Shown here in pieces: positions 12,483 through 26,076 of a DNA stretch of 48,432 bases. The translations under genes and the position numbers were made by a program. Within the stretch, counting starts at the first letter, position 1. Each line of letters starts with the position of its first letter. The notes under the pieces were generated by a model that saw nothing but the letters and a program-made list of their open reading frames with translations, did not search any database and was not told where the DNA came from. The DNA lies in the IMG/VR virus record IMGVR_UViG_3300050195_000016, positions 1-48,432 of that record; one strand, given 5' to 3'. Source of the DNA: a virus.

Positions 12483-12607
12483 AATACACAATCGTTCATC
12501 TAAAAGGTAAATCTGTGTTTTACAACTGTGTAGATGCATACGCTTTTATGCAGTATTTTAAATCTCTGGGCTACTGCCCTACAATTAAAAAGGAAATACC
12601 CAAATGA
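12479..12607 (+). CDS. Small hypothetical ORF (42 aa)
   Basis: Hand-translated as MKYTIVHLKGKSVFYNCVDAYAFMQYFKSLGYCPTIKKEIPK. It has an ATGA overlap with the upstream stop and an overlap with the downstream start. It is below the size cutoff of the ORF track. Confidence 0.4.
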   Translation: MKYTIVHLKGKSVFYNCVDAYAFMQYFKSLGYCPTIKKEIPK

Positions 12608-13434
12608 AAAAGCTTTATTCTATTGGAGCATTTATACTTCTATTTGCATTTTGTGCATTTAGCTCGTACTTCACTGTTGACCAAGGTGAGCGTGGTGTTG
12701 TTCTGCGTTTTGGTAAGATTAAAGAGGTGGCTAATGCTGGGCTTGGATTTAAGATGCCATTCTTTGATGATGTTAAGTACCTCGATGCAAAATCACAGGT
12801 AACTCGTATGTCACTTCCAGCATACTCTAAAGATCAACAGCCAGCTAATATGGTTGTGTCTGTTAACTGGCATGTTAGTGACTTTGCGAAAGCATACAGT
12901 GAGTATGGGGATCTTAAGAATCTATCTGACCGTGTTGTGTACACTAATGTTCCACAATCAGTTAAGACCGTGTTTGGACAGTTTGCAGCAGCTACGTCTA
13001 TCCAACAACGTGACAAATTGAATGTTGAGATTGCTAATGAAGTAGAGCGCACTATTCGTGGGCCTATTGTGATTGAATCAATCCAGTTAGATAACATTGA
13101 TTTCTCCTCAGCATATGAGCAATCAGTAGAAGCGCGTATGTTAGCAGAGGTTGAAGTTGCTAAGCTGCACCAAAATGCAGAACGTGAGAAGGTGCAAGCA
13201 CAGATTACCGTAACTCGTGCTCAAGCTGAGGCAGATGCTGTTAAGGCGTCAGCTAATGCAGAAGCAGCAGCTATCGCTATGAAGGGGAATGCAGAGGCAT
13301 CTGCATTAGAGGCTAAAGCTAAAGTTTTACGTGATAACCCTCTGTTGATTGACTATACTAAAGCTGATCACTGGAATGGTGCATTACCAAGCACCATGAT
13401 GGGTGGTGCAGTTCCTATGTTTAATGTTAAATAG
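12604..13434 (+). CDS. SPFH / band-7 (prohibitin, HflK/C-like) membrane protein
   Basis: N-terminal transmembrane helix, then FTVDQGERGVVLRFGKI...GLGFKMPFFD, typical of the SPFH domain, followed by an Ala/Glu-rich coiled coil. Confidence 0.8.
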   Translation: MKKLYSIGAFILLFAFCAFSSYFTVDQGERGVVLRFGKIKEVANAGLGFKMPFFDDVKYLDAKSQVTRMSLPAYSKDQQPANMVVSVNWHVSDFAKAYSEYGDLKNLSDRVVYTNVPQSVKTVFGQFAAATSIQQRDKLNVEIANEVERTIRGPIVIESIQLDNIDFSSAYEQSVEARMLAEVEVAKLHQNAEREKVQAQITVTRAQAEADAVKASANAEAAAIAMKGNAEASALEAKAKVLRDNPLLIDYTKADHWNGALPSTMMGGAVPMFNVK

Positions 13435-14009: not shown

Positions 14010-14037
14010 TGTAATCCATTCTAAGCGTTTATAACCC

Positions 14038-14063
14038 TAGGGCATACAAACGTATGTGCCCTA
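14038..14063 (+). terminator. Hairpin terminator candidate
   Basis: TAGGGCATAC-AAAC-GTA(TG)TGCCCTA, about 10 bp with a 2-nt bulge, followed by a T/A run. Confidence 0.45.
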
Positions 14064-14082
14064 TATTATAAATGCTTCTACG

Positions 14083-14111
14083 TTGATTGTAGAGCGTTTA
14101 ACGTTGATAAT
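14083..14111 (+). promoter_or_regulatory. Sigma70-like promoter heading the enzyme module
   Basis: TTGATT, 17-nt spacer, GATAAT, located 19 nt upstream of the ATG at 14130. Confidence 0.5.
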
Positions 14112-14129
14112 ACTCAATAGGAGATGCTA

Positions 14130-15368
14130 ATGAAAGTTAAAAACATAACTCCAGACTTAATGAAGGCTGGTAAATGGTACATTGTTAAGCCAACTAATGG
14201 CGTATACCACAAGAATGGTGTTCTGCATTTCTGTGAAGAAGACGCACCACGTCGTCTTATGGGACGTCTTAAATTTGATTTTATCTATGAGTTCCCTGCT
14301 AAATATGAACTCAAATTCTTCATCTTAAAGCCAGAAAATATGGATGAATGGCCACGATGGACTAAGGTGATGGATAAGTATAACGGTACTATACACCCGA
14401 TTACCACAAAAGATATTAACACTATCGAAGATGATGAAGAGTTGGGGGGTAATCGTTACATTGAGATTGAGGGCTTTGGTTTCTCCCCAAACTGGTTCAC
14501 CCCCACAGAAATTCCTGACTTCAGTGAAGATAAGTACAAATTCATGTTTGTACCTACTGAGGTAACTCTCCCAAAAAAATCTTTGACGTTATCAGAGAGT
14601 CTGGTAACGTCTAAACTCTCTGAACAGATTGATACGTTAAAGAAACATAACAGGTCCACAGCTGATTTCATTGTGTTTAAAGAAGACGGGGATTTTAATG
14701 AATATTATGGAGAAGCTTGTCACTCTTCTTTGAGTAATAACAGGAATATTGGTAGTAAATATGTGCTATCTTCCATCAGATGTCAAGTAGATGTGACAGA
14801 AGACTCGTTAAAAAGTTATTATTATTACTTAACTAATGAATCTCCAATGAAAGGTGCGTTCATTGTTAAAAATATTGAATGGATTTGTCACAACAAACAA
14901 TTCATTTGTACATCTAAAGTACCAAGTAATTTGTTAGCTGCTGCATTAATCGCAACACGTCAGGCTTGGGAATACCCAAACACAGTTAATAGCTTTTATA
15001 AGTTGGTTAGTGCAGGGGTTGATAGCCACTTAGCATATCTATTATGTAATAGTTGTGGTGGGGTTAAAGATGGAGGTATGTGCTTTACCAGATACACATC
15101 AAACCATTCAGCTATAGATGCTGATCATATGTCTGATAAAGATGTGTTAAACTTTATCAAGACTGGGAAGCCCCTGTTTGCGTTAGGTAATTACACAAAA
15201 CAAGTTAGTTATAGACGTGTATTTGATTTGTATGCATCAGGCGATAAGAGTACGCTACTAACTAAATTAGTGGCTGCTTGTCGTGGTGAATATGGTAAAG
15301 CAAAATACATTACAATTGAGGAGACAGTAGATGTCATCCAGTCTTGGTGCGATGAGTTTTATTCCTAA
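14130..15368 (+). CDS. Hypothetical protein (412 aa), first gene of the enzyme module
   Basis: AGGAG lies 6 nt upstream of the ATG at 14130, whereas the track start at 14124 abuts the RBS. No motif recognised. Confidence 0.6.
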   Translation: MKVKNITPDLMKAGKWYIVKPTNGVYHKNGVLHFCEEDAPRRLMGRLKFDFIYEFPAKYELKFFILKPENMDEWPRWTKVMDKYNGTIHPITTKDINTIEDDEELGGNRYIEIEGFGFSPNWFTPTEIPDFSEDKYKFMFVPTEVTLPKKSLTLSESLVTSKLSEQIDTLKKHNRSTADFIVFKEDGDFNEYYGEACHSSLSNNRNIGSKYVLSSIRCQVDVTEDSLKSYYYYLTNESPMKGAFIVKNIEWICHNKQFICTSKVPSNLLAAALIATRQAWEYPNTVNSFYKLVSAGVDSHLAYLLCNSCGGVKDGGMCFTRYTSNHSAIDADHMSDKDVLNFIKTGKPLFALGNYTKQVSYRRVFDLYASGDKSTLLTKLVAACRGEYGKAKYITIEETVDVIQSWCDEFYS

Positions 15369-15528
15369 AGGAGCTCATTACTATTATCCAGCTAATAATT
15401 GTTTCTATAAGATAGGGAACAATGGGAAGCTTTATTTCTGGTCTGATGGTTGGTCTGTGTCCCTTATCACTGTTACTGACTTTCTTAAAGATGTATCTTA
15501 TGGGGAGGCATATGCGATACGACGGTAG
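15331..15528 (+). CDS. Small hypothetical protein (65 aa)
   Basis: GAGGAG lies upstream of the ATG. The ORF overlaps the end of the 412-aa ORF. Confidence 0.4.
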   Translation: MSSSLGAMSFIPKGAHYYYPANNCFYKIGNNGKLYFWSDGWSVSLITVTDFLKDVSYGEAYAIRR

Positions 15529-15706
15529 ATATAGATCAAAGGAGACTGGTCGGGATTACTTAGTAGACGGCCTAGACATATACTGGGTTCGGGAGCCTCC
15601 GGAAGAGACTGTACTCTCCAACTACACTAAGCATATTGATCACTTTATAGAAAAAGTGGCTAATGGTAAGATGGTTAAAATTCCTAATAAGTTTAGGGGG
15701 AACTAA
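15512..15706 (+). CDS. Small protein ending FRGN (64 aa from the internal ATG)
   Basis: GGGGAGG lies just upstream of the ATG at 15512. The longer track ORF from 15422 would overlap its neighbour by 107 nt. The 3' end carries the junction motif. Confidence 0.45.
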   Translation: MRYDGRYRSKETGRDYLVDGLDIYWVREPPEETVLSNYTKHIDHFIEKVANGKMVKIPNKFRGN

Positions 15707-15708
15707 TT

Positions 15709-16353
15709 ATGACTAAGGTTTATATCGTTAATAGTAGCTATGCATATGAACGTATGTATATTGAAGAAGGGTTTGAGCTAGTAGATAATGCAGATAAAGC
15801 AGGCCTGATCCAATTTACTGGTGGTGCAGATGTACATCCATCTTTGTATGGAGAACGTGATGTATACTCCTATCCAAATGCACGACGTGACTACGAAGAA
15901 ATGAAGATCTTCGAGAAGTACGCAGGTAAAAAGCCTATGGCTGGTGTTTGTCGTGGGGCGCAGTTCCTTTGTGTAGCTAATGGTGGTAAGTTGTGGCAAG
16001 ATGTGGATAACCATGCTATCTATGGGTTACATACAATGCTTGTTAAGGAGAGCATTGATGGTGAGTTTGCTAAAGAAGTGTATGTAACGTCCACACACCA
16101 TCAAGCAATGCGTTGTGTAGAAGAAGCTAATGGTATCATCATTGGTATTAGCGAACCACGTTCTAGTGAACGTTACGGGGAAACAGAAACAGTGTTAGGG
16201 CTTCGGGATGATGATGTAGAAGTTGCATTCTTCCCTAAAACTAAATGTTACTGTTTCCAACCTCACCCAGAAATGACAAGTAAAAACTCTGGATGCCGTT
16301 TAGAGTTCTTCTATGGACTTAAAACGTTCTTAGGGGTTGATCCTTATGCATAA
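15709..16353 (+). CDS. Class I glutamine amidotransferase-like / peptidase C26 (gamma-glutamyl hydrolase family)
   Basis: Nucleophile elbow GVCRGAQF, followed by THHQ and FQPHPE, which is the PuuD/C26-type triad pattern. Confidence 0.8.
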   Translation: MTKVYIVNSSYAYERMYIEEGFELVDNADKAGLIQFTGGADVHPSLYGERDVYSYPNARRDYEEMKIFEKYAGKKPMAGVCRGAQFLCVANGGKLWQDVDNHAIYGLHTMLVKESIDGEFAKEVYVTSTHHQAMRCVEEANGIIIGISEPRSSERYGETETVLGLRDDDVEVAFFPKTKCYCFQPHPEMTSKNSGCRLEFFYGLKTFLGVDPYA

Positions 16354-16564
16354 CTTCAAAACAGGGGATAGGGTTAAATGTATAAAAGACTTAGATAATA
16401 ATGAACTTGCTGTTGGTAAGATAGGTGTTGTAAAGGAGTCCTGGGATGATGGTGTAACTGTTAGGTTTTCTAGAAACGAGGTAAGGTACCCGTTCACTGA
16501 GTGGAACTTCTATGAAGATCCTATAGAAGATTACTTAATTCCAGTGGAGTTTAGGGGAAATTAA
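16346..16564 (+). CDS. Small GDRV...FRGN family protein (72 aa)
   Basis: Begins MHNFKTGDRVKC and ends EFRGN. The ATG at 16346 overlaps the upstream stop. Confidence 0.55.
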   Translation: MHNFKTGDRVKCIKDLDNNELAVGKIGVVKESWDDGVTVRFSRNEVRYPFTEWNFYEDPIEDYLIPVEFRGN

Positions 16565-16565
16565 T

Positions 16566-16997
16566 ATGAAAAATAAACTTAACTTTTGGATTGCTCTTGG
16601 GTTAATATTACTAATTTCACTTTCCTATAATATTATAAACAAGGAGAAAGTCCAATATCCGCCAACCAAAGTAACTGTTGTTGATAAGTTTGATGGGCCA
16701 CCACAACGTAGAGGTCGGGTAGACCAGTATATCACTTATGAGTGGACTGACTCTCAGGGACAACGCTGGGTGTACTCTAGTACAACAGGCCCAGTGGAGT
16801 TCCACAATACTAATATAGGGGGTACTATAGAATTAACAGTACCTAAAGCCTCGTTCTGGCTTGGTCGTGATGTTGGGCCTAGATACAAGCTATATAACCA
16901 AGTATATCCGGGAATTGTGTCTGATGGTGTTTCAGCTAGAGCCGGAATAGTTTTGATGGTTATTTGTTGGTCCTTACTTTTGGTACTTATTTTATAA
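16566..16997 (+). CDS. Membrane protein with N- and C-terminal transmembrane helices (143 aa)
   Basis: Hydrophobic segments FWIALGLILLISL and GIVLMVICWSLLLVLIL. Confidence 0.55.
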   Translation: MKNKLNFWIALGLILLISLSYNIINKEKVQYPPTKVTVVDKFDGPPQRRGRVDQYITYEWTDSQGQRWVYSSTTGPVEFHNTNIGGTIELTVPKASFWLGRDVGPRYKLYNQVYPGIVSDGVSARAGIVLMVICWSLLLVLIL

Positions 16998-17013
16998 TTT
17001 AAAGGAAATTAAT

Positions 17014-18177
17014 ATGTGTGGACTTGTTGGTGTTTACACCAAATTCGCTACTCAAAAAGATGTAGAAATCTTTGAGACTATGTTACAACTAGATGCCATC
17101 CGTGGTAAAGATAGTACAGGTGTTTGTATTGTTAAGAATGAAGATACATTCTTGATTAAGAAAACACTTCTACCTCAAGACCTGATGGATATGCGTCAGT
17201 ATAGTACCATTGTTAAAAATGGTGCTCAGTTATTAATGGGGCATAATCGTGCAGCTACTGCCGGCAAAGTTACCAGTAATAATGCTCACCCATTTGAGAC
17301 AGATAATGTTATTGGTGCTCATAATGGGACATTAGTATTGTGGCATAACCTGTATGAAGCTAATAAGTTCACTGTAGATAGTGAAGCCTTGTTACATCAT
17401 ATTAGTGTAAAAGGTATTGAAGATGCATGGTTAACTAAAGATGGTGCTACTGCATTAACTTACTTCCATAAACAAGAAAAAGCTTTATACCTCGTTCGTA
17501 ACAAAGAACGTCCATTGTTCACTTTAGAACAAGCTAACACTGTATATTATGCATCAGAAGCTTGGATGATCGCTGTAGCTTTACAGAAAGCCGGTGTTAA
17601 GGTCTCTGGTGAGATTAAAGAAGTACCGGAGAATATTGTGCATAAATATAAAGATGGTGTTTTAGAGGGAACATTCCCTGTAAAGGAGCCAGCTCCCTTT
17701 CGTACCTGTACAACTACGACGGGTGGTACGACTCCTACTAAAGTTAGTGTGGAAGAGAAAGGGAACCCAGTATACTTCATCGTAGATCGTCTTGTAACTT
17801 ACTGGGGAGGTGATTGTGTACGTGCAGAAGGTCACTCCACTAATAAATCAAAGACTCCTGTAACAGTTATTGTGGATAAGAAGGAGTATCCAGAGTTGTT
17901 TGAATTGTTCAGTTCTACAGAAGATATTCAATTCTATGGGAAGATATCTTCTAAGGTTAATGGTGGGTATTACGTAGACGTATACTCTGTTCTTGAGATT
18001 GTAGAGGGTGATGAAGATAGTGCCCCATTTGCATTAGCTGACAAGTCTCTGGTTCATTGTGCTTGGTGTGATGAAGTGTATGCTAAGCATGAGTGTGTAT
18101 CAGCAGGTGGTAATGAGTTTGTTTGTAAAGATTGTGCTAGTTTAGATGAAGTTAAATTATATATTAAGGAAGCTTAA
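17014..18177 (+). CDS. Class II (Ntn) glutamine amidotransferase-like protein with a C-terminal Cys-rich domain
   Basis: N-terminal MCGLVG (Cys2 nucleophile) plus GHNRAATAG...NAHPF. The C-terminus has CAWCDE...CKDC, a zinc-ribbon-like pattern. Confidence 0.8.
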   Translation: MCGLVGVYTKFATQKDVEIFETMLQLDAIRGKDSTGVCIVKNEDTFLIKKTLLPQDLMDMRQYSTIVKNGAQLLMGHNRAATAGKVTSNNAHPFETDNVIGAHNGTLVLWHNLYEANKFTVDSEALLHHISVKGIEDAWLTKDGATALTYFHKQEKALYLVRNKERPLFTLEQANTVYYASEAWMIAVALQKAGVKVSGEIKEVPENIVHKYKDGVLEGTFPVKEPAPFRTCTTTTGGTTPTKVSVEEKGNPVYFIVDRLVTYWGGDCVRAEGHSTNKSKTPVTVIVDKKEYPELFELFSSTEDIQFYGKISSKVNGGYYVDVYSVLEIVEGDEDSAPFALADKSLVHCAWCDEVYAKHECVSAGGNEFVCKDCASLDEVKLYIKEA

Positions 18178-18178
18178 A

Positions 18179-18973
18179 ATGACTAAAATTTTAGTAGGTG
18201 CAGACCCAGAAATCTTTGCTAAGAAAGAAGGTAAACTTGTTTCAGCATATGGCTTACTCACTGGCACTAAACATGCTCCACAGATTGTTGATAAAGGGGC
18301 TGTACAGATTGACGGTATGGCTCTGGAATTCAACATCAACCCTGCGGCTAATGAGCAGGAATTCCTTACTAACATTGAAACAGTTATGTCAATCATGCAG
18401 AAGATGTCTGGTGCTGAGTTTGCTATTCAACCTGTAGCAGATTTTGGTGAAGAATACATGAAGACTCAACCTAAAGAAGCATTAGAACTTGGCTGTGATC
18501 CTGACTTCAATGCATGGAATGTTGCTGTTAACCCTCGTCCTAACGGTGATCGTCCTTTCCGTACAGCAGCTGGTCATATTCATATTGGTTTCTGTGATGA
18601 TGGTGAACCAGAGAATATGTTCTACTTAGAATATGTATCTGAGTTTGTACGTGAACTCGACTTCTATCTTGGCCTACCTTCATTGTTCTTAGATAACCAT
18701 GCAGATAGTTCACGTCGTCGTGAATTGTATGGCAAGGCTGGTGCATTCCGCCCTAAAGTGTATGGTGTTGAGTATCGTACTCTGTCAAACTTCTGGCTTG
18801 CTTCTAAAGAGCTACAGAAGTGGGCTTACAATTCCACTGTTAATGCATGGGAAGCATTTAGTAGTGGTAAAGTGTTGGCTAAGAAGTACGGGGATATCCA
18901 AAGTATTATCAACTCCTCTAACAAAGAAGCTGCTAAAAAGATCATTGATGAAGAGGGATTGATGAATGTTTGA
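18179..18973 (+). CDS. Phage COOH-NH2 ligase (phiEco32-like type 2, glutamine synthetase fold)
   Basis: Begins MTKILVGADPEIF, with DGMALEFNI, AAGHIHIGF and GVEYRTLSNFW, as I recall for the phiEco32-like COOH-NH2 ligase family. The start at 18179 follows AAGGAAG. Confidence 0.7.
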   Translation: MTKILVGADPEIFAKKEGKLVSAYGLLTGTKHAPQIVDKGAVQIDGMALEFNINPAANEQEFLTNIETVMSIMQKMSGAEFAIQPVADFGEEYMKTQPKEALELGCDPDFNAWNVAVNPRPNGDRPFRTAAGHIHIGFCDDGEPENMFYLEYVSEFVRELDFYLGLPSLFLDNHADSSRRRELYGKAGAFRPKVYGVEYRTLSNFWLASKELQKWAYNSTVNAWEAFSSGKVLAKKYGDIQSIINSSNKEAAKKIIDEEGLMNV

Positions 18974-19211
18974 ACCAGACTGGGGAGAAACACTAGAACT
19001 ATGCACCAGCGTTTTCAGGGATGAAAAAGACAAGAACTTATTCTATTTGGTACTTTTTGAAGAAGTAAAATCTGAATATGGAAACCTTGTAGTATTCGCT
19101 AAAAACTCTAATGAATGTGTGTGTGCAATGCCAGTAAAAGAGTTTTACGAAGGGCTTATTCCTGCTACAGAAGAAGAAGTGCAACGATTGTCAGAGGAGG
19201 GGTTTTTGTGA
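18966..19211 (+). CDS. Hypothetical protein (81 aa)
   Basis: ORF overlapping the upstream stop. Confidence 0.5.
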   Translation: MFEPDWGETLELCTSVFRDEKDKNLFYLVLFEEVKSEYGNLVVFAKNSNECVCAMPVKEFYEGLIPATEEEVQRLSEEGFL

Positions 19212-19291
19212 AATTTAAAATTGGGGATAGAGTTACTTATAATGACTTTGGTAGCCCAGTTAAACCTATAGTAGAATTTAAGGGAAATTGA
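19208..19291 (+). CDS. Mini-ORF (27 aa, GTG start), a truncated GDRV...FKGN family member
   Basis: Hand-translated as (M)KFKIGDRVTYNDFGSPVKPIVEFKGN. GAGGAGGGG lies upstream and the GTG overlaps the upstream TGA. Confidence 0.4.
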   Translation: MKFKIGDRVTYNDFGSPVKPIVEFKGN

Positions 19292-19292
19292 T

Positions 19293-20039
19293 ATGAAAAC
19301 TATGATGTATGCTTATAAGATGGGTAGTCAAGGTGCTAAAGCTTTAGCTGGTGCTATGGGTATTAAACGCATTCTGCATAATGGTACAGCTAAACTTAAT
19401 GTAGATGTGTTGATTAACTGGGGATCTGGGAGTCTACCAGCTCGTGTTAATGCTAAACGTGTCCTCAATAACCCAGAAGCTGTTACATTGTCTGCAAACA
19501 AGCTGAAAGCATTTGTAGCGATGAAGGACACTGGATGCACAGTAGACTATACCAGTAGTAAAGAAATTGCTCTACGTTGGATTGAGGAAGGTTCTACAGT
19601 GGTTTGTCGTACCATCCTTAATGGACATTCAGGAAATGGTATCATCATTGCTGAAAAAGCTGATGAGTTAGTTGATGCCCCATTGTACACAAAGTACTTT
19701 AATAAGAAAGAAGAATATCGAGTTCACGTCTTCAATGGTGAAATGTTGTATGCTCAACGTAAAGCACGTAAACGTGAAGTACCAGATGATAAAGTTAACT
19801 GGAAAGTACGTAACCATGATAATGGATTTATCTTCCAGTTGAATGGTTTTGTTCTACCAGAAGTGTGTAAAGATGTCGCTATCAAGGCAGTTAAAGCATT
19901 AGGTCTTGATTTTGGGGCTGTTGATGTTGGATATACCAATGGAGTTGCTAAGGTGTTTGAAGTTAACACAGCTCCGGGTCTTACAGGTACATCTATCGAG
20001 CTGTACAAAGACGCTGTAAACAACTTTATTGGGGGGTAG
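19293..20039 (+). CDS. ATP-grasp ligase (RimK-like)
   Basis: YRVHVF, KVRNHDNG and GAVDVG...FEVNTAPGL, the pattern of an ATP-grasp C-terminal domain. Confidence 0.8.
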   Translation: MKTMMYAYKMGSQGAKALAGAMGIKRILHNGTAKLNVDVLINWGSGSLPARVNAKRVLNNPEAVTLSANKLKAFVAMKDTGCTVDYTSSKEIALRWIEEGSTVVCRTILNGHSGNGIIIAEKADELVDAPLYTKYFNKKEEYRVHVFNGEMLYAQRKARKREVPDDKVNWKVRNHDNGFIFQLNGFVLPEVCKDVAIKAVKALGLDFGAVDVGYTNGVAKVFEVNTAPGLTGTSIELYKDAVNNFIGG

Positions 20040-20042
20040 GGT

Positions 20043-20237
20043 ATGTCTGATATTAAAGCTGGAGATAGAGTTGTTGTAGTAAGTAGCAGGAAAGAGATTT
20101 TAATTGGTGGTATTTTTGAAGTATTAAAGGTTGATGGTACTTCTGTTAAATTAGATATCTCTAATTTATACGGGCAGTCATATTGGACTACAACTAAAGA
20201 CCGTGTTAAAAAGGTTTGTGTGTTTAGGGGGAACTAG
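20043..20237 (+). CDS. Small GDRV...FRGN family protein (64 aa)
   Basis: Begins MSDIKAGDRVVVV and ends VFRGN. Confidence 0.55.
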   Translation: MSDIKAGDRVVVVSSRKEILIGGIFEVLKVDGTSVKLDISNLYGQSYWTTTKDRVKKVCVFRGN

Positions 20238-20238
20238 T

Positions 20239-20469
20239 ATGTGCACTATTAAGTTAAGTAGTAAAGTTAGGTTAAACCCAGATAAGGTGCACTATAACCT
20301 TAAACACCAACTTAATAACAATATAGGTGAAATAGTAAGGATTACCAGAGGTGGTCCACACAAAAGACCTGTTACCTACACGGTTACTTGGGATTACTTG
20401 GGGGAGAGGTTTACTAATTTTTACGGTGAAGAAGCTTTAATCTTGTATAAACCTTTTAAGGGGAACTAA
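20239..20469 (+). CDS. Small protein ending LILYKPFKGN (76 aa), paralog of 20911..21126
   Basis: The ATG at 20239 follows the junction motif. Its C-terminus EEALILYKPFKGN matches EEDLILYKSFKGN. Confidence 0.55.
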   Translation: MCTIKLSSKVRLNPDKVHYNLKHQLNNNIGEIVRITRGGPHKRPVTYTVTWDYLGERFTNFYGEEALILYKPFKGN

Positions 20470-20921
20470 TGGACTTAGCAGAAGATTATAAAGCTAATTA
20501 CAAAAAATGGGTTAAGCTAGCTAATTGGCGTGTAGATAGTTTCTGGGCTGAGGATGTAGTACAGGAAACTTATGAACGTGCATTACGTTGGTATAAACCG
20601 GAGACAGTGTTGAGCTTTGATGCATGGATGATGTCTACCTTCAAGTCTGTTTGTGCTAAATATTTAGCCATCTCAATGGGAAGATACACTGACATTGATG
20701 AAGAGGAAATTGAAGACGCTGCTAATACAGCTAGTGCAGAGATTGCTGAGGAATTTATCCATCGTACTAAAGGAATGCGTGAAGACCATCAACACATTTT
20801 ATATTGTTCTCTAATTCTTGGTATGCGTGACTTAGAGATTATTAAAGCTACTGGTGTATCTGGTGCAAATATCCGTAAGATACGTAGTAGATTTATTAAG
20901 GAGACTAATAGTGGAATTTAA
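20469..20921 (+). CDS. ECF-like sigma factor (putative)
   Basis: 150 aa. Region-2-like AEDVVQETYERALRWY and a region-4-like helix-turn-helix, LEIIKATGVSGANIRKIRSRF. Confidence 0.6.
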   Translation: MDLAEDYKANYKKWVKLANWRVDSFWAEDVVQETYERALRWYKPETVLSFDAWMMSTFKSVCAKYLAISMGRYTDIDEEEIEDAANTASAEIAEEFIHRTKGMREDHQHILYCSLILGMRDLEIIKATGVSGANIRKIRSRFIKETNSGI

Positions 20922-21126
20922 AGAAGGGGATAAAGTAAAATTAAGTAAAGATAGTCGCTTTTACTGCAATTCCCCATACCAATTAGGGGATAATATAGGG
21001 GTTGTGCTTGTAGCACTTCCGGGTTATCTAGGGGTAGGCTGGATTGATAAAAATACAGAGAATGAAAAAAGAAACTCTTATTGGGAAGAAGATTTAATCC
21101 TATACAAATCTTTTAAAGGAAACTGA
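20911..21126 (+). CDS. Small GDKV...FKGN family protein (71 aa, GTG start)
   Basis: AAGGAG lies 8 nt upstream of the GTG at 20911. Begins (M)EFKEGDKVKL and ends YKSFKGN. Confidence 0.5.
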   Translation: MEFKEGDKVKLSKDSRFYCNSPYQLGDNIGVVLVALPGYLGVGWIDKNTENEKRNSYWEEDLILYKSFKGN

Positions 21127-21127
21127 T

Positions 21128-21373
21128 ATGTCTAGAAGTTTTAAAAAAGTGGTTGGATATAAAGACAATAATAACAAAGTATATAAAAAGCATTCTAATA
21201 AAGTAGCACGTAAAGATATGGAATTACAGGACGGTATGCAGTATAAACGTAATGACCTGTCATGGGACATTTGTGACTGGAAGATTATGCTGCATACTGA
21301 CACAGATATTATTAAGTGGATTACCCGTAGCCGCCCGTTCTTCCGGCCTCTACATAAACTATATACCAAATAA
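21128..21373 (+). CDS. Hypothetical basic protein (81 aa)
   Basis: ORF after a junction motif, Lys/Arg-rich. Confidence 0.5.
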   Translation: MSRSFKKVVGYKDNNNKVYKKHSNKVARKDMELQDGMQYKRNDLSWDICDWKIMLHTDTDIIKWITRSRPFFRPLHKLYTK

Positions 21374-21385
21374 TGGAGGTGGTAG

Positions 21386-21946
21386 ATGAAATGCTTCTAT
21401 CTAAAGCAGGACTTTAACCAACGTATAGTTGGAGGGCTCTGTAAAGCTCGTGGTGAAGTTGTGTTCATCACTAGGTACACAGATGAAGGGTTCAGAGGTG
21501 TAACACTGCTACAGCAGGAACTAGGCGGTATTAAGCCAGATGAGTTAGATGTATCCCCCTTACCACTAGGCAATGTATTTTTGGGTAAGTCATATGTATA
21601 TACATCAATGTGTCCAGCTCGTCAATACAAGCAGACACTGAATAACGAGACTTTTGTCTCACATAGAATGCCGTGGGAGTGTAAGAACATCACACTAGAG
21701 ACGCCTGCATTGTTGAGAACAATCTCTAATACATTCATGTCTGCTGTTGACGCATTCAAAATTGTTCTAGCTGGAGGTGCTACAGCTATTCCATTCAGTC
21801 GTGAATTTGGTGTTGCTAAAGTAAATGAATCATTTAATGTAGTATACAAAGACGAACTGGTAGGAAGTGTTACAAAAGTTGGTGTGTCTTTATTTCCTAA
21901 TAAATTTTATCTTAAAGAATCTCTGGAGGAAGCTCTTAATGGCTAA
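21386..21946 (+). CDS. Hypothetical protein (186 aa)
   Basis: ORF overlapping the start of the amidoligase gene by 8 nt. Confidence 0.55.
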   Translation: MKCFYLKQDFNQRIVGGLCKARGEVVFITRYTDEGFRGVTLLQQELGGIKPDELDVSPLPLGNVFLGKSYVYTSMCPARQYKQTLNNETFVSHRMPWECKNITLETPALLRTISNTFMSAVDAFKIVLAGGATAIPFSREFGVAKVNESFNVVYKDELVGSVTKVGVSLFPNKFYLKESLEEALNG

Positions 21947-22721
21947 AACAATTAAAGAGTTGTTGGGTCTTCCTAACAATTACAAAGATGTATACGGCGT
22001 TGAGTTTGAGATTGAGTACAAACGTGGGGTGGAATTTAAGAGAGCCCCAGAAGGGTGGAGCGTAGACCCTGATGAACATTCTATCCGTAATGGTCTTGAG
22101 TATGTTATGGACCGACCAGAGGACTTAATTAGTGTCCGCAGAACTATTGATAAATTCTCTGAAGTAGTGCCAACAGACATTGTTAATGACAATGGATACG
22201 CAGGAACACATGTACATTGTAATGTGTCAGACTTAACTAAGAACCAATTATTCAATTTTATTCTCACCTATCTGTCTATGGAGAATGTATTAAGCAAACG
22301 TTTCTTTGGGGAAGACCGAGAAGGAAGTTTGTTCTGTCTACGTTTATCTGATGCAGACTACTTAGAGAAAATCCTACGTCGTGTAGTAGTAGAAGATAAT
22401 TTACGTTTGTTAGAGCAGGAGAATATTCGTTATTGTAGTTTGAACGTTCTATCTCTGTTTAAATATGGAACATTAGAGTTCCGTGGTCTACGTGGTGATG
22501 GTGATTATGAACGTGTCAAAGATTGGATTGTTGTTATTCATGCACTTAAAGAGTTCTCACGAAAAGTAGAAGATCCAATTGCATTGCTTACTCTGTCTTC
22601 TAAAACTGCTGGGGAATTTGCAAAAGAAATCCTACCAGACCTATCTAAAGAAGAGCAGCAGGAAGTGTATCGTGGTGTGAGACGTGTACAAGGTATTGCG
22701 TTTGAAGGTTCATGGGAATAG
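21939..22721 (+). CDS. Putative amidoligase (Amidoligase_2-like, glutamine synthetase fold)
   Basis: Begins MAKTIKELLG, with YGVEFEIEY, GLEYV, GTHVHCNV and GTLEFRGL. GGAGGA lies 8 nt upstream of the ATG at 21939. Confidence 0.65.
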   Translation: MAKTIKELLGLPNNYKDVYGVEFEIEYKRGVEFKRAPEGWSVDPDEHSIRNGLEYVMDRPEDLISVRRTIDKFSEVVPTDIVNDNGYAGTHVHCNVSDLTKNQLFNFILTYLSMENVLSKRFFGEDREGSLFCLRLSDADYLEKILRRVVVEDNLRLLEQENIRYCSLNVLSLFKYGTLEFRGLRGDGDYERVKDWIVVIHALKEFSRKVEDPIALLTLSSKTAGEFAKEILPDLSKEEQQEVYRGVRRVQGIAFEGSWE

Positions 22722-22748: not shown

Positions 22749-22943
22749 ATGTCACAAAATATTGATTTTACCACTCTAGACTATACACCACCAATTGGAG
22801 CCAAGTATATAGATTGGTTCGGCGGTTATTGGAAAGTGGTTGGAACTCACTATCTTAAATGGGAAAGATATACAAACAGGTGGACAGTTAAATCGTACAT
22901 CCCTCGTGGTCTACGTGATATTAATGTGTTTAAGGGGAATTAG
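22749..22943 (+). CDS. Small protein ending VFKGN (64 aa)
   Basis: ORF with AAGGAG upstream and the junction motif at its 3' end. Confidence 0.55.
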   Translation: MSQNIDFTTLDYTPPIGAKYIDWFGGYWKVVGTHYLKWERYTNRWTVKSYIPRGLRDINVFKGN

Positions 22944-22945: not shown

Positions 22946-23158
22946 ATGGAAGAATATACACATGTGTTAATTCACGTAATAACTGAAACTCAGTGGTTTA
23001 TTAGATTTGTTGGTAATAATGCTTACTGGAGAAGTAAAAACAGTGATGAGACTGGTGTGTTCCCCTTATTTGGCACAGTAGAGCAGTATAAATTAAAGGT
23101 GGAACCACAGGGGTTTAAACTAACTAAACTAAATACTGTAAAGTTCAGGGGTAATTAA
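22946..23158 (+). CDS. Small protein ending KFRGN (70 aa), tandem paralog of 23162..23371
   Basis: EYTHVLIHV...WFIRFVGNNAYW compared with EYTHKLIVE...WLMRFSGGNVEW. Confidence 0.6.
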   Translation: MEEYTHVLIHVITETQWFIRFVGNNAYWRSKNSDETGVFPLFGTVEQYKLKVEPQGFKLTKLNTVKFRGN

Positions 23159-23161: not shown

Positions 23162-23371
23162 ATGAGTGAATATACACACAAGTTAATAGTTGAGGGAGAT
23201 GAGTGGCTTATGCGGTTTTCAGGGGGTAATGTAGAATGGATACATGTTAGTTCTGGGAAGATTGGTGTTACCCGAGGTAGCTATACTTCTGTTGAGGACT
23301 GTTATAAAGAGATGTTTAAAAGTAGAGGATCCTCACTTAAACTAATTAAAAATACATTTAAAGGAAACTAA
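23162..23371 (+). CDS. Small protein ending TFKGN (69 aa), tandem paralog of 22946..23158
   Basis: See 22946..23158. Confidence 0.6.
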   Translation: MSEYTHKLIVEGDEWLMRFSGGNVEWIHVSSGKIGVTRGSYTSVEDCYKEMFKSRGSSLKLIKNTFKGN

Positions 23372-23372: not shown

Positions 23373-23645
23373 ATGGGAGTGTGGTCTTATATACATGGGA
23401 ACGTTTCTCTCCCAAAGAAGGAACATGTATCAATTGAAAAAGCTGTACGCTGCTACTTCCGTCAATCAGAGAAGTTTAAACTAACTAAAATAACTGAGAA
23501 TGAACACTACCATTTCGTGCATATTAGCTTTAATGTAGATGAATCTGGCTGCTCTGTAGCAGATAATTTACAATTGCTATTAACTTCTCTGGACGGACTT
23601 GGCTGTAAATACGATTTGGAGGTGTCATTACGCTACCTTAATTAA
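23373..23645 (+). CDS. Hypothetical protein (90 aa)
   Basis: ORF after a junction motif. Confidence 0.5.
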   Translation: MGVWSYIHGNVSLPKKEHVSIEKAVRCYFRQSEKFKLTKITENEHYHFVHISFNVDESGCSVADNLQLLLTSLDGLGCKYDLEVSLRYLN

Positions 23646-23653: not shown

Positions 23654-24619
23654 ATGGCAGGTGATTGTGTAGAAAAGATGGGGCATTCCTGTGGTACTCA
23701 CCAAGGACTGCAAGTGTTTCTAAATGAGGATGGTACATACTCAGGATTCTGTTTTAGTTGTAATAAGTATGTAGCAGATCCATATAAAGATAAACCAAAG
23801 GGGTATAAGCCAGTAGCAGTTAAGAAGACTGCTGAAGAAATCGAAGCAGAGATTGCAGAGATTAAAGACATGGGCACTCAGGATATTCCTGAGAGAATGT
23901 TAATGAAGAAGTATTTAGAATACTTTGGAGTGAAGGTTGGTTATGACGAGAGGGTAGCTGGTAAGGTTAACTTTATGGCATTCCCTTATAATCAAGGGAA
24001 AGGTTTTAAATGTAATCTACTATCTCCTAAGAAGTTCTGGTCAGTTGGTGATGCATCTGGTTCTGACTTCTTCGGTCTTGACAAAGCTCTACAAACAGGT
24101 GCTAAGCGTTTATATATTACTGAAGGCGAGAAGGATGCGGTTACTCTTTTCCAAGTAATGAAAGAGAGTAATAACAACCCTAAGTTTGCAGACTTTAATC
24201 CAGCAGTAGTAAGTCTTCCTCATGGTATTGCCTCTGCTACAGCAGATATCTCCACTAAGATTGAAGTGTTTCGTAAGCACTTTAAAGAAATTGTATTAGT
24301 GTTTGATATGGACGCTCCGGGACGTGCTGGAGCAGCTGATGTATGCAGGGTGTACCCAGACTTTCTTTCTGTAGACCTACCAGCTAAAGATCCTAATGAA
24401 TGCTTAATGCAAGGATTCAAGAAGGGTTTGTTTAATGCTGTTATGTTTAATGCAGAAAAACCAAAGAACTCCCGTTTAGTATTTGGGAGTTCATTACGTG
24501 AGTCTGCAATGAAAGCGCCTGAATGGGGATTGTCTTGGCCTTGGCAAGGTCTTACAGACCTCACTCGTGGTATTCGTAGAGGAGAGACTTACTACCTAGG
24601 CGCTGGCGTTAAAATGGGT
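23654..24619 (+). CDS. Primase-helicase (T7 gp4-like), exon 1
   Basis: Zinc-finger-like HSCGT...CFSCNKY, and TOPRIM motifs LYITEGEKDA and VFDMDAPGR. The exon ends inside Walker A (GAGVKMG|). The extra residues QLIVSY-stop in the track ORF are intron sequence. Confidence 0.8.
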
Positions 24620-25392: not shown

Positions 25393-26076
25393 AAGAGTGA
25401 ATTAGTTAACGCATTAGCTGCTCACATGATCACTGAACACGATCTCCCAGTATTTATGGCTAAGCCTGAAGAAGCTATTGCTAAGACCTACCAAATGTTA
25501 GTTGGTAAAGTGGCTGGTAAAATCTTCCATGACCCTAAGATTCCATTCGATATGAATGCTTTCTTGGAGGCAGAGAAGAAGGTCGGGGATAAGGCCATTA
25601 TCCTTGATGCATACCAGTTTGTAGATTGGGATACATTGAAAGCAGACACTAAGTATGCAGTTGTGTCTGAAGGGGTTAAGGATGTGTTCTATGATCCAAT
25701 CACTTGCTTTACTAATAATATGGGGGCAGCGGAGGCTAACGAGTTTCTAATGGAGATGACAGCAGAACTATCTGCTATGTCTAAGGATTTAAACTTTACT
25801 TCTTACATCTTCTGCCATCTTAAAGCCCCACAACAAGGACCAACACATGAACGTGGTGGTGAAGTGTTATCAACACAGTTTGCTGGTAGTAGAGCTATGA
25901 TGCGTAGTTGTAACATGATGCTTGGATTACAGGGAAATAAAGACCCTTCCCTCTCCCCTGAGCAACGTAATATGCGTAAGCTTGTTCTATTAGAAGATCG
26001 TGAGTTTGGTAATGTTGGAGGCATTGACTTGTATTGGAATAACCAAACTGGTTTATTCACTGAGATTAAATCATAG
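25393..26076 (+). CDS. Primase-helicase (T7 gp4-like), exon 2
   Basis: The frame is open from 25372. KSELVNALAAH completes Walker A. The spliced protein is about 549 aa, comparable to T7 gp4. Confidence 0.75.
   Translation, partial: KSELVNALAAHMITEHDLPVFMAKPEEAIAKTYQMLVGKVAGKIFHDPKIPFDMNAFLEAEKKVGDKAIILDAYQFVDWDTLKADTKYAVVSEGVKDVFYDPITCFTNNMGAAEANEFLMEMTAELSAMSKDLNFTSYIFCHLKAPQQGPTHERGGEVLSTQFAGSRAMMRSCNMMLGLQGNKDPSLSPEQRNMRKLVLLEDREFGNVGGIDLYWNNQTGLFTEIKS

What the first reader, a model, noticed from the sequence alone, without database searches (positions are those of the whole stretch)
14083..22721. Promoter-led module with five amide-bond enzymes and many tiny ORFs
A terminator (14038-14063) and a sigma70-like promoter (14083-14111) precede a block of enzyme genes:
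- an unknown 412-aa protein
- a peptidase C26 / class I GATase (GVCRGAQF, HHQ, FQPHPE)
- a two-helix membrane protein
- an Ntn class II GATase (MCGLVG) fused to a Cys-rich C-terminal domain
- a phiEco32-type COOH-NH2 ligase
- an ATP-grasp ligase
- an Amidoligase_2-like enzyme

These are interleaved with at least 9 ORFs of 27-90 aa and an ECF-like sigma factor.

Comparative genomics has predicted that combinations of GS-fold ligase, ATP-grasp, GATase-II and gamma-glutamyl hydrolase in phages make or attach a peptide or amide-linked moiety. As far as I know, neither the product nor the target (protein tag, metabolite, cell-envelope precursor, nucleic acid) has been established.

Three ligases together with two amidohydrolase-type enzymes suggests a multi-step build, trim and transfer pathway.
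Basis: partly seen in the sequence, partly recalled or inferred. Interest (0 to 1): 0.8.

Follow-up and report, generated by a model that had tools for sequence, protein, structure and literature searches.

The report
Phage amide-ligase module with tagged mini-proteins
This is a new phage's copy of a widespread but still uncharacterised set of amide-bond-forming enzymes, and the "tiny ORFs" between the enzyme genes turn out to be a family of mini-proteins that all carry the same short C-terminal tag, which differs from phage to phage and may be the missing clue to what the enzymes act on.

Summary
The enzyme calls are correct. Profile searches confirm a C26/class-I GATase, an Ntn GATase with a zinc ribbon, a GS-fold COOH-NH2 ligase (AF2 pLDDT 94.7), a RimK-type ATP-grasp, an Amidoligase_2 and an ECF-like sigma factor. 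The window is a whole 48-kb Zobellviridae (Citrovirus-like) phage contig. The block is its copy of the amidoligase module predicted in 2009 for phiEco32/LUZ24-type phages. That module occurs in 319 GenBank phage records, and I found no report that tested it experimentally. Across 92 related loci the core has seven genes. In LUZ24 and Kuravirus a gamma-glutamyl cyclotransferase stands in place of the C26 enzyme, which implies that a gamma-glutamyl bond is made and then cut. The promoter match is no better than chance. The hairpin is real but lacks a U-tract.

The new result concerns the tiny ORFs. Nine of thirteen end in F[KR]GN. Related phages carry 8-18 such ORFs each, with a genome-specific tail (FKGNV, LENE, LENK, LEND, EEEN, FEGNV, L-x-N-x). 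The ORF bodies are hypervariable and orthologous bodies take the tail of their genome. The tail codons usually double as the next gene's Shine-Dalgarno sequence, but the peptide is kept even where they do not. Many bodies are SH3-like. The same repeats are fused to the module's first, unknown protein in tail-less relatives. The product and target remain unknown.

The parts
14038..14063 (+). Stable hairpin at the upstream boundary of the module. It has no U-tract. It may be a terminator, a processing site or a stability element.
   Evidence: Fold dG -22.3 kcal/mol, z -5.9. A hairpin at the same position is present in relatives.
14083..14094 (+). Conserved box TTGATTGTAGAG.
   Evidence: (T)TGATTGTAG follows the hairpin in L003, L013, L014, L005 and L006. 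It occurs once in the window. The sigma-70 match itself is at chance level.
14130..15368 (+). 412-aa first gene of the module. It has a variable N-terminal part and a conserved ~250-aa C-terminal domain, 'DomX' (residues ~160-412), of unknown fold.
   Evidence: phrog_34254, unknown function. No Pfam or PDB hit. AF2 failed at pLDDT 31. C197 and R277 are invariant, and S238, E281 and H326 nearly so, in 60 homologues. DomX is fused to tandem SH3-like repeats in six relatives.
15331..15528 (+). Small ORF S1 (65 aa) without the tail.
   Evidence: ORF with GAGGAG upstream. No family hit.
15512..15706 (+). Small ORF S2 (64 aa) ending in KFRGN.
   Evidence: Clusters with L002_10786.
15709..16353 (+). 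Peptidase C26 / class-I GATase-fold gamma-glutamyl hydrolase. Residues C81, H186, E188.
   Evidence: Pfam PF07722, E 7.5e-17. phrog_7218. NCBIfam weak matches to PuuD and gamma-glutamyl-CDP-amidate hydrolase. Present in 80 of 92 related loci.
16346..16564 (+). Small ORF S3 (72 aa), SH3-like, ending in EFRGN.
16566..16997 (+). 143-aa protein with two hydrophobic helices. It is not conserved in relatives and is probably an insertion.
   Evidence: Hydropathy windows at 6-25 and 121-143. No family hit.
16998..17012 (+). Remnant tail motif TTTAAAGGAAATTAA (F-K-G-N-stop), in frame just after the membrane gene's stop codon. It serves as the Shine-Dalgarno sequence of the GATase-II gene.
17014..18177 (+). 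Ntn (class II) glutamine amidotransferase domain (residues 1-~210), a beta-rich region, and a C-terminal CxxC...CxxC zinc ribbon.
   Evidence: GATase_6, E 5e-14. purF/glmS/asnB N-terminal domain hits. C2, R79, N104-G105, D122, C349/C352/C371/C374. Present in 91 of 92 loci.
18179..18973 (+). GS-fold COOH-NH2 ligase (phiEco32 type 2).
   Evidence: PF14395. phrog_3815, E 1.8e-85. AF2 pLDDT 94.7. Foldseek matches to glutamine synthetases, plant glutamate-cysteine ligase 2gwc and YbdK 1r8g/1tt4, with Dop/PafA weaker.
18966..19211 (+). Small ORF S4 (81 aa) without the tail.
   Evidence: No family hit.
19208..19291 (+). Small ORF S5 (27 aa, GTG start). A truncated SH3-like ORF ending in EFKGN.
19293..20039 (+). 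RimK/MptN-type ATP-grasp ligase (alpha-L-glutamate ligase family).
   Evidence: PF08443. phrog_2599, E 1.2e-83. NCBIfam MptN 5e-12 and rimK_fam 1.3e-9. PDB 7qys/5zct. E223-x-N225.
20043..20237 (+). Small ORF S6 (64 aa), SH3-like, ending in VFRGN.
20239..20469 (+). Small ORF S7 (76 aa), SH3-like, ending in PFKGN.
20469..20921 (+). ECF-like two-domain sigma factor. It lies inside the block here but is not a conserved module member.
   Evidence: Sigma70_r2. TIGR02937, E 9.6e-11. In relatives it follows the primase-helicase.
20911..21126 (+). Small ORF S8 (71 aa, GTG start), SH3-like, ending in SFKGN.
   Evidence: Close homologue P0131 also ends in SFKGN.
21128..21373 (+). Small ORF S9 (81 aa) without the tail.
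   Evidence: No family hit.
21386..21946 (+). 186-aa conserved protein of unknown function. It sits next to the ligases in every related locus inspected.
   Evidence: phrog_11055. Present in 91 of 92 loci. Invariant R13, G62, P77, R79. No Pfam or PDB hit.
21939..22721 (+). Amidoligase_2 (second GS-fold ligase).
   Evidence: PF12224, E 1e-9. phrog_7469, E 1.2e-49. E-x-E, H-x-H and E-x-R motifs. Present in 89 of 92 loci.
22749..22943 (+). Small ORF S10 (64 aa) ending in VFKGN.
22946..23158 (+). Small ORF S11 (70 aa), 'EYTH' body type, ending in KFRGN.
23162..23371 (+). Small ORF S12 (69 aa), 'EYTH' body type, ending in TFKGN.
23373..23645 (+). Small ORF S13 (90 aa) without the tail. It is the last gene before the primase.

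Best explanation
The block is the middle-gene amide-ligation module of a Citrovirus-like Zobellviridae podophage. It lies between the early genes and the primase-helicase.

Shown:
- The module has a seven-gene conserved core:
  - DomX protein
  - C26 gamma-glutamyl hydrolase
  - Ntn glutamine amidotransferase with a zinc ribbon
  - GS-fold COOH-NH2 ligase
  - a 186-aa protein of unknown function
  - Amidoligase_2
  - RimK-type ATP-grasp ligase
- All recognisable catalytic motifs are intact.

Inferred mechanism:
- In the infected cell's cytoplasm the three ATP-dependent ligases build an amide-linked adduct on an as yet unknown acceptor.
- At least one step makes a gamma-glutamyl amide (GS/GCL-type ligase).
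- One step adds alpha-linked glutamate (RimK/MptN type).
- One activated carboxylate is amidated with ammonia from the Ntn GATase.
- The C26 enzyme later removes the gamma-glutamyl group. This is a protect/modify/deprotect logic, as in the Puu and ergothioneine pathways.

The tiny ORFs are real mini-proteins. They are mostly SH3/KOW-like beta-barrels and carry a genome-specific C-terminal tag, here F-[KR]-G-N-COOH. The tag's codons also supply the Shine-Dalgarno sequence of the next gene.

The same SH3-like repeats are fused to DomX in tail-less relatives. I therefore infer that the mini-proteins work with DomX, a candidate Cys/His/Arg/Glu enzyme, as exchangeable targeting or adaptor subunits. 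On this view the tag is the tether or handle.
For: Families and motifs. GS fold of the ligase.

Conserved core in 92 loci: ligase 92, Ntn GATase 91, 186-aa protein 91, Amidoligase_2 89, ATP-grasp 85, C26 80, DomX 70. Gene order is conserved in L002, L003, L012-L014, L017, Asterion and Pecta.

Gamma-glutamyl logic: GGACT/AIG2 cyclotransferase (E 3.6e-20) replaces C26 in LUZ24 and SU10.

Tag:
- 9 + 1 copies in the window against 0.02 expected.
- 8-15 tail ORFs per genome in eight genomes on the coding strand, none on the other strand.
- Further tail types in L017, L018 and IMG/VR relatives.
- 85 tail ORFs fall into 63 body clusters, and orthologous bodies carry the tail of their genome.
- Coupled LEN-type tails use YTG-GAG codons in about 30 of 31 cases. 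Uncoupled tails use non-SD synonymous codons in 0 of 9 cases yet keep the amino acids (Fisher p 4e-8).
- In L017, 15 of 34 small genes have Asn at -2 against a 4.2% background (p 2e-12).
- PSA11 and Phriendly have coupled genes but no uniform tail.

SH3-like fold.

Fusion link: six relatives encode 3-4 FKVGD-type repeats fused N-terminally to DomX, E 7e-12 to 3e-4.
Against: - No enzyme activity, product or target is shown by anything here.
- 72 of 92 related loci, and also LUZ24, SU10, PSA11 and Phriendly, have the enzymes without any tail ORFs. The tag cannot be an obligatory part of the chemistry.
- In relatives, tail ORFs also lie among replication genes. Their interleaving with the enzymes may be only positional.
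- DomX has no detectable fold. Its 'enzyme' status rests on a few invariant polar residues.
- In the window itself every tail is coupled to the next gene and K-G always encodes an SD-like AARGG. Peptide-level selection is therefore demonstrated only in relatives.
- The N-terminal part of the window's own DomX protein shows no significant SH3 similarity.
Confidence: 0.45

Rival explanations
1. Small-molecule pathway with no link to the tiny ORFs. The enzymes make or remodel a gamma-glutamyl peptide, a polyamine conjugate or a cofactor glutamyl tail. Examples would be a glutathione-like thiol serving the phage ribonucleotide reductase, or a folate/pterin glutamylation state. The tail-tagged mini-proteins would then be an unrelated set of early/middle host-takeover proteins that happen to sit between the genes.
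For: - The ligase model is closest to glutamate-cysteine ligase, YbdK and glutamine synthetase.
- The ATP-grasp is closest to MptN/RimK glutamate ligases, which act on cofactors as well as proteins.
- Both C26 and GGACT cleave gamma-glutamyl small molecules.
- Most module-bearing phages have no tail ORFs.
- The module always adjoins replication and nucleotide-metabolism genes.
Against: - The fusion of FKVGD-type SH3 repeats to DomX ties that domain family to the module.
- Two conserved proteins of unknown fold (DomX and the 186-aa protein) have no counterpart in the known small-molecule pathways.
- The hosts already make glutathione and folate polyglutamates (established knowledge).
Confidence: 0.25
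2. Protein-tagging or carrier system. The C-terminal tags are the substrates. The ligases, DomX and the hydrolase modify, extend, cleave at or conjugate through the invariant Asn or the C-terminal carboxylate. Known parallels are Pup (GGQ, Dop/PafA), LysW-LysX (a RimK-type ligase acting on a carrier-protein tail), RimK-S6, microcin C (C-terminal Asn) and asparaginyl peptide ligases.
For: - Asn is invariant at -1 or -2 in more than 100 tails of the Asn-type genomes inspected, with AAT/AAC variation and never Lys.
- The tag type is genome-wide and co-evolving.
- A RimK-family ATP-grasp and two GS-fold ligases of the Pup-ligase superfamily are adjacent.
- DomX has an invariant Cys and a near-invariant His.
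Against: - Tail-less phages keep every enzyme at 45-58% identity.
- The residue after Asn varies (none, V, K, E, D, I, T) and so does the chemistry of the tail (basic FKGN versus acidic EEEN).
- Foldseek ranks Dop/PafA well below GS/GCL.
- One distant relative has LEDWL tails with no Asn.
Confidence: 0.15
3. The tail is only a by-product of translation signals. On this view it is a conserved extended Shine-Dalgarno plus stop-start junction for translational coupling, or a recombination linker between gene cassettes, read in a fixed frame. The block is then just an ordinary, tightly packed operon.
For: - All tail types in coupled junctions are SD-like: AAGGGG, TGGAG, GAGGAG, GAAGG.
- The motif also occurs outside an ORF at 16998-17012, where it acts only as an SD.
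- Codon choice tracks whether the next gene is coupled.
Against: - Uncoupled tails keep the amino acids with non-SD codons, e.g. TTA GAA AAY, CTC GAA, TTA ACT AAT, GAA GAA GAA.
- Asn is never replaced by the equally A-rich Lys codons.
- The frame is constant although spacing to the next ATG varies by 5-9 nt in the window.
- The terminal residue is genome-specific with synonymous variation, e.g. GAT/GAC in Pecta and AAA/AAG in L012.
- Related phages with coupled genes have no uniform tail.
- In L017 the tail DNA is too diverse to act as a recombination linker.
Confidence: 0.08
4. Cell-envelope modification, the original suggestion for phiEco32. The module would amidate or extend peptidoglycan precursor peptides (compare MurT/GatD, AsnB/LtsA, the D-Asp ligase and Ddl) to block superinfection or protect against lysis. 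The SH3-like domains would bind stem peptides.
For: - Each enzyme class has a precedent in peptidoglycan precursor chemistry (established knowledge).
- Tandem SH3-type repeats fused to a catalytic domain are typical of cell-wall enzymes, and that architecture occurs here.
- The suggestion is cited in PMC10580990.
Against: - None of the proteins has a signal peptide apart from the non-conserved membrane protein.
- The SH3-like profile matches KOW, CPH and PsaE-type barrels rather than SH3b cell-wall-binding families.
- The module carries no Mur-ligase or transpeptidase.
Confidence: 0.07

Closest known systems
Phage amidoligase gene cluster predicted by Iyer, Abhiman, Burroughs and Aravind 2009 (phiEco32; LUZ24 gp14-gp22; Kuravirus SU10 gp078-gp090)
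   Same: The same families occur: COOH-NH2_lig, Amidoligase_2, Ntn GATase and RimK-like ATP-grasp. A ~190-aa protein sits between the two GS-fold ligases. The position just upstream of the primase-helicase is the same.
   Different: - This lineage uses a C26 hydrolase where LUZ24 and SU10 use a GGACT cyclotransferase.
- The upstream unknown proteins and the ~190-aa protein are not detectably homologous (hhalign probabilities 0.1-1.8%).
- This clade interleaves tail-tagged mini-proteins between the enzyme genes.
Gamma-glutamylation cycles: PuuA/PuuD (putrescine), EgtA/EgtC (ergothioneine), GshA/GshB/GGCT (glutathione)
   Same: A GS-fold ligase is paired with a class-I GATase-fold or Ntn-type gamma-glutamyl amidohydrolase, or with a GGCT. 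A GS-fold ligase plus an ATP-grasp ligase act in succession.
   Different: - No orthology: all NCBIfam scores are far below the cut-offs.
- There are three ligases rather than one or two.
- There are two extra conserved proteins of unknown fold.
- The setting is a virus.
LysW-LysX / ArgW amino-group carrier protein system, and RimK-S6
   Same: A RimK-family ATP-grasp ligase is encoded next to small proteins that have a conserved C-terminal tail.
   Different: - Those systems have one carrier with an acidic EDWGE tail and a zinc ribbon. Here there are about ten hypervariable SH3-like proteins.
- Tail chemistry here ranges from basic to acidic.
- Tail-less relatives keep the ligase.
- No ligation has been shown.
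Pup-PafA-Dop pupylation
   Same: GS-fold ligase paralogues are present and there are small proteins with a conserved C-terminal amide residue (Gln there, Asn here). Dop and PafA appear among the structural matches.
   Different: - Dop and PafA rank far below GS/GCL.
- There is no proteasome context.
- Here there are many different tag-bearing proteins rather than one tag.
Tandem FKVGD-type SH3-like repeat proteins of phages and bacteria
   Same: The small ORFs are single copies of the repeat unit found 3-7 times in longer proteins. The same repeats are fused to DomX in relatives.
   Different: Here the domains are separate genes, each ending in a genome-specific tag that overlaps the next gene's ribosome-binding site.

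Membership tests
Phage amidoligase module (Iyer et al. 2009 type) | Co-located COOH-NH2 ligase, Amidoligase_2, Ntn (class II) GATase and ATP-grasp genes in a phage | tested here: met
   Pfam, PHROG and NCBIfam hits. The same set is found in LUZ24, SU10 and 92 Zobellviridae-like loci.
Phage amidoligase module (Iyer et al. 2009 type) | A linked gamma-glutamyl-bond-cleaving enzyme (GATase-like thiol peptidase or AIG2/GGCT) | tested here: met
   C26 at 15709-16353 with the C81/H186/E188 triad. GGACT occupies this role in LUZ24.
Phage amidoligase module (Iyer et al. 2009 type) | Synthesis or attachment of a peptide/amide moiety | not testable with these tools
   No biochemical data. No experimental paper found.
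Glutamine synthetase / GCS2 fold carboxylate-amine ligases | GS-type fold with conserved metal- and ATP-binding Glu, His and Arg | tested here: met
   AF2 pLDDT 94.7. Foldseek E ~1e-4, probability 1.0, to GS, 2gwc, 1r8g and 1tt4, with TM 0.4-0.5 on the query. E11, E50, H133/H135 and R200 are invariant or nearly invariant.
Class II (Ntn) glutamine amidotransferase | N-terminal Cys nucleophile, Arg for the glutamine carboxylate, Asn-Gly oxyanion hole, Asp for the alpha-amino group | tested here: met
   C2, R79, N104-G105 and D122. GATase_6, E 5e-14.
Class II (Ntn) glutamine amidotransferase | A fused or partnered synthase domain that accepts the ammonia | tested here: not met
   Only the N-terminal ~210 residues match. 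The C-terminal part is beta-rich plus a zinc ribbon with no synthase hit. Any partner would have to act in trans.
RimK-family alpha-L-glutamate ligases (ATP-grasp) | ATP-grasp fold with the E-x-N Mg/ATP motif and family-level profile similarity | tested here: inconclusive
   MptN 5e-12, rimK_fam 1.3e-9 and PDB RimK hits, but all bit scores are far below the curated cut-offs. E223-x-N225 is present. Substrate untested.
LysW-type carrier protein / Pup-type tag | A small protein whose conserved C-terminal residue is covalently ligated by the adjacent ligase | not testable with these tools
   A conserved C-terminal tag is shown. Tail-less relatives keep the ligases.
SH3/KOW-like beta-barrel | Profile similarity to SH3-like barrels | tested here: inconclusive
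   All the best PDB and Pfam matches are SH3-like barrels (HERC2 CPH, uL24 KOW, PsaE, NusG KOW, SH3_15, Cul7), but E-values are only 1e-3 to 0.1. No structure model was made.
Intrinsic terminator + sigma-70 promoter | GC-rich hairpin followed by a U-run; -35/-10 hexamers above chance | tested here: not met
   The hairpin is stable, but the tail is TATATTAT and the scan did not call it. The promoter is a 9/12 match, with fewer such matches in the region than in shuffles.

The most novel reading that the evidence does not exclude
The tiny ORFs are a hypervariable repertoire of mini-proteins (SH3-like plus at least two other body types). Each carries a genome-specific C-terminal tag (hydrophobic-x-N-x) that evolves in concert across all 8-18 copies in a phage. 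The tag, the novel DomX domain (fused to the same SH3-like repeats in relatives) and the adjacent ligases and hydrolases together form a phage protein-tagging or targeting system. In that system the tag's invariant Asn or C-terminus is enzymatically ligated, processed or docked. The long-sought substrate of the phage amidoligase module would then be encoded between its own enzyme genes.
Probability: 0.17. Interest if true: 0.9.

Novelty: new variant of a known kind. Interest (0 to 1): 0.62.

Why it matters
The amidoligase module is one of the most widespread sets of phage enzyme genes with no known product. It occurs in LUZ24-like, phiEco32-like and Zobellviridae phages, including therapy candidates.

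This analysis adds three concrete handles:
1. C26 and GGACT replace each other between lineages, which points to a transient gamma-glutamyl bond.
2. A seven-gene core includes two proteins of unknown fold. One of them (DomX) has an invariant Cys and Arg.
3. A family of mini-proteins carries a co-evolving C-terminal tag, and their SH3-like domain is fused to DomX in other phages.

The tag is also a clean natural example of dual coding, since the peptide tag and the next gene's ribosome-binding site share the same bases. Cultured relatives (CVT22, Pecta, Asterion) carry it, so it can be tested directly by mass spectrometry and recoding.

Tried and rejected
- Close DNA relatives in GenBank phages: only a 110-bp hit to Vibrio phage Phriendly.
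- The search for related loci with the single ligase protein: nothing found.
- Exact tail-DNA scan of IMG/VR: only chance single hits.
- Homologue search for the 412-aa protein: self only. With a nine-sequence profile, four proteins. The resulting AF2 model failed (pLDDT 31), so no fold search was made for it.
- Profile searches against the PDB for the 412-aa family (9 and 60 sequences) and the 186-aa family: no meaningful hit. Pfam on all members: nothing.
- hhalign of the Zobellviridae 186-aa and DomX families against the LUZ24/SU10 proteins in the same positions: not significant. Only positional equivalence is claimed.
- Frameshift fusion of small ORFs to downstream genes: rejected, because downstream frames vary.
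- Tail motif as a promoter for the phage sigma factor (GGAAC -35 or phiEco32-type AATGTAT): rejected, because the sequence after the motif is variable and the motif precedes almost every gene.
- Search for a large protein specific to tail-bearing genomes within +/-10 kb: none found.
- The representative-database search with the SH3-like profile mostly returned long tandem-repeat proteins. It says little about how widespread the tails are.
- Rfam: no known RNA at the hairpin.
- The Iyer 2009 paper itself is not held. Its content is cited from memory and through PMC10580990 and PMC4431377.

Full report
**What the window is.** The 48,432-base window is a complete metagenomic contig; its ligase protein is on record from a JGI contig of exactly this length. 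It is a podophage of the Zobellviridae / Citrovirus type. The nearest named relatives by the COOH-NH2 ligase (57-59% identity) are Erwinia phage Pecta, Klebsiella phage Asterion and Citrobacter phage CVT22. Closer unnamed metagenomic relatives reach 68-74%. Genes on the + strand from about 10.3 to 33.8 kb are early and middle genes:
- a Band-7 protein
- the block in question
- a primase and a helicase separated by an HNH gene
- a family-A DNA polymerase interrupted by a group I intron
- a 5'-3' exonuclease
- a ribonucleotide reductase

**Checking the observation.**
- C26/class-I GATase: G-V-C81-R-G and H186-P-E188.
- Ntn GATase: C2, R79, N104-G105, D122, and a C-terminal CxxC...CxxC.
- GS-fold ligase, RimK/MptN-like ATP-grasp (E223-x-N225) and Amidoligase_2 all keep their motifs.

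An AlphaFold model of the ligase built on 75 homologues is confident (pLDDT 94.7). It matches glutamine synthetases, plant glutamate-cysteine ligase and YbdK, with Dop/PafA further down the list.

The hairpin at 14038-14063 is significantly stable but has no U-run. The sigma-70 match is 9/12, in a region with fewer such matches than its shuffles, so 'promoter-led' is not established. A hairpin followed by (T)TGATTGTAG is nevertheless conserved at this boundary in five relatives. I could not assign its role.

**What the module is.** It is the phage amidoligase cluster known from comparative genomics. The ligase occurs in 319 GenBank phage records: LUZ24-like, phiEco32/Kuravirus, tf, Zobellviridae, Vibrio and Aeromonas phages. 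It also occurs in 519 IMG/VR stretches. Literature searches found only restatements of the 2009 prediction and no experiment.

Clustering the ORFs of 92 Zobellviridae-like loci gives the following core:

| Gene | Loci (of 92) |
|---|---|
| COOH-NH2 ligase | 92 |
| Ntn GATase | 91 |
| 186-aa protein | 91 |
| Amidoligase_2 | 89 |
| ATP-grasp | 85 |
| C26 hydrolase | 80 |
| 412-aa family | 70 (some cut by locus ends) |

The sigma factor and the membrane protein are not part of this core. In LUZ24 and SU10 the same ligases, GATase and ATP-grasp are present, but a GGACT/AIG2 gamma-glutamyl cyclotransferase replaces the C26 enzyme. Two unrelated enzymes that both cut gamma-glutamyl amides occupy the same role. 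This is the best available evidence that the pathway makes and then removes a gamma-glutamyl linkage. The Ntn GATase keeps a full glutaminase site and has no synthase domain. I read it as an ammonia donor acting in trans, not as a second trimming enzyme.

**The tiny ORFs.** Between 15331 and 23645 there are 13 small ORFs, and nine of them end in F-[KR]-G-N-stop. A tenth copy of the DNA motif lies in frame immediately after the stop codon of the membrane-protein gene. The motif has 9 matches against 0.02 expected, all on the + strand and all 1-6 nt before the next start codon. The motif is therefore also the Shine-Dalgarno sequence of the next gene.

Relatives show the same arrangement with other tails:

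| Genome | Tail |
|---|---|
| L002 | FKGN + 1-2 residues |
| L003 | FKGNV |
| L012, L020 | FKGNK |
| L018 | FEGNV |
| L013, CVT22-like L022 | LENE |
| Asterion | LENK |
| Pecta | LEND |
| L014 | EEEN |
| L055 | LLEENV |
| L026 | h-x-ENE |
| L017 | [LI]-x-N-[VIT] |

Each genome has 8-18 such ORFs on the coding strand and none on the other strand.

Four observations show that the peptide, not only the RNA, is under selection.
1. Where the next gene is close, LEN-type tails are written YTG-GAG (SD-like) in about 30 of 31 cases. Where it is far or has its own SD, they are written TTA-GAA, CTC-GAA, CTT-GAT or ATA-GAA (0 of 9 SD-like), yet they encode the same residues (Fisher p 4e-8).
2. In L017 most tails are not SD-like at all, yet 15 of 34 small genes have Asn at -2 against a 4.2% background (p 2e-12).
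3. Asn is written AAT or AAC and is never replaced by the equally A-rich Lys codons.
4. The last residue is genome-specific and shows synonymous variation.

Related phages with tightly coupled genes (PSA11, Phriendly, L019, LUZ24, SU10) have no uniform tail. SD constraint alone therefore does not produce one.

**Concerted evolution of the tag.** After the tails are removed, 85 tail ORFs from eight genomes fall into 63 BLAST clusters. There are at least three body types: FKVGD SH3-like, xYTHEV, and P-x-(W)ATHY. Orthologous bodies carry the tail of the genome they sit in. For example, L002_8243 ends in FKGNV while its orthologue L013_4687 ends in SLENE, and L005_10594 ends in DLENK while L012_1169 ends in FKGNVK. 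The tag is therefore a property of the genome, which implies a shared partner that reads it. I found no large protein specific to tail-bearing genomes within 10 kb of the ligase.

**Link to the enzymes.** A profile of the FKVGD-type small ORFs gives only SH3-like barrels as best PDB and Pfam matches, though weakly. In the large protein library it mostly finds long proteins with 3-7 tandem copies.

The 412-aa first gene of the module consists of a variable N-terminal part and a conserved ~250-aa C-terminal domain, DomX. Over 60 diverse members, C197 and R277 are invariant and S238, E281 and H326 nearly so. In six tail-less relatives DomX is fused to 3-4 N-terminal FKVGD-type repeats (E 7e-12 to 3e-4). 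In L019 a free three-repeat protein lies 1 kb upstream of the DomX gene.

This fusion pattern is the only direct evidence connecting the mini-proteins to the module. The tag sits at the end of the SH3-like domain, where the fusions have their linker to DomX. Hence my preferred reading is that the mini-proteins are exchangeable adaptor or targeting subunits of DomX, with the tag as tether or handle. This is an inference. 72 of 92 related loci have all the enzymes and no tails, and tail ORFs also lie among replication genes in relatives.

**What remains unknown.** The product, the acceptor, the fold and activity of DomX and of the 186-aa protein, and the reader of the tag are all unknown. The structure caps and the rule on admissible sequences prevented a deep-alignment model of DomX; the four-sequence attempt failed.

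**Verdict.** The finding is real and its families are correct. As an enzyme module it is a new member of a known, predicted-only kind. The tagged mini-protein family with dual-coded, genome-specific C-termini, and its fusion link to DomX, make this lineage a new variant worth experimental follow-up in the cultured relatives.

Noticed in passing
window 28043-28299 (+): Group I intron (Rfam RF00028, 85.5 bits, E 1.8e-20). It interrupts the family-A DNA polymerase gene, whose exons are roughly 26860-28086 and 28386-28994.
   Followed up: partly
window 1581-1671 (-): A tRNA-Ile gene with anticodon TAT. It is the only tRNA in the contig.
   Followed up: no
window 23654-26076 (+): The primase (23654-24640) and helicase (25426-26076) parts of the primase-helicase are separated by an HNH_3/NUMOD4 homing-endonuclease ORF (24734-25222), as in Klebsiella phage Asterion. 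A second HNH ORF lies at 30674-31087.
   Followed up: partly
window 16566-17012 (+): The two-helix membrane-protein gene looks like an insertion that replaced the body of a tail ORF. An intact F-K-G-N-stop motif remains in frame just after its stop codon and serves as the ribosome-binding site of the GATase-II gene.
   Followed up: partly
window 14030-14100; L003 6705-6760; L013 5925-5990; L014 5805-5875; L005 4875-4955; L006 4925-4990: A hairpin with a partly conserved stem (AGGnnATAC...GTATnnCCT) followed by (T)TGATTGTAG is conserved upstream of the module. Its function is unknown (terminator, processing site or promoter element). It occurs only once in the window.
   Followed up: partly
L096 4577-13464: A more distant module-bearing IMG/VR phage has four small ORFs ending in [LK]-[EK]-D-W-L. 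This is a different tail type without Asn.
   Followed up: no
L006 (Erwinia phage Pecta MZ333131) 8743-8955 (+): An unannotated + strand tail ORF (...VVTQLEND) lies where GenBank annotates a minus-strand CDS (locus 8842-8976). This is probably a misannotation.
   Followed up: no
window 12604-13434 (+): A 276-aa SPFH/Band-7 protein with an N-terminal hydrophobic segment (PF01145, E 1.2e-32; phrog_200 'lipoprotein') is encoded among the early genes just upstream of the module.
   Followed up: no
L019 4693-5358; L039 6023-7657; L027 4984-6471; L045 5220-7232; L037 4978-6756; L030 2172-3944; L038 1589-3145: Tail-less relatives encode the FKVGD-type SH3-like domain as tandem repeats. These are either a free three-repeat protein or repeats fused to the conserved C-terminal domain of the module's first protein.
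   Followed up: yes
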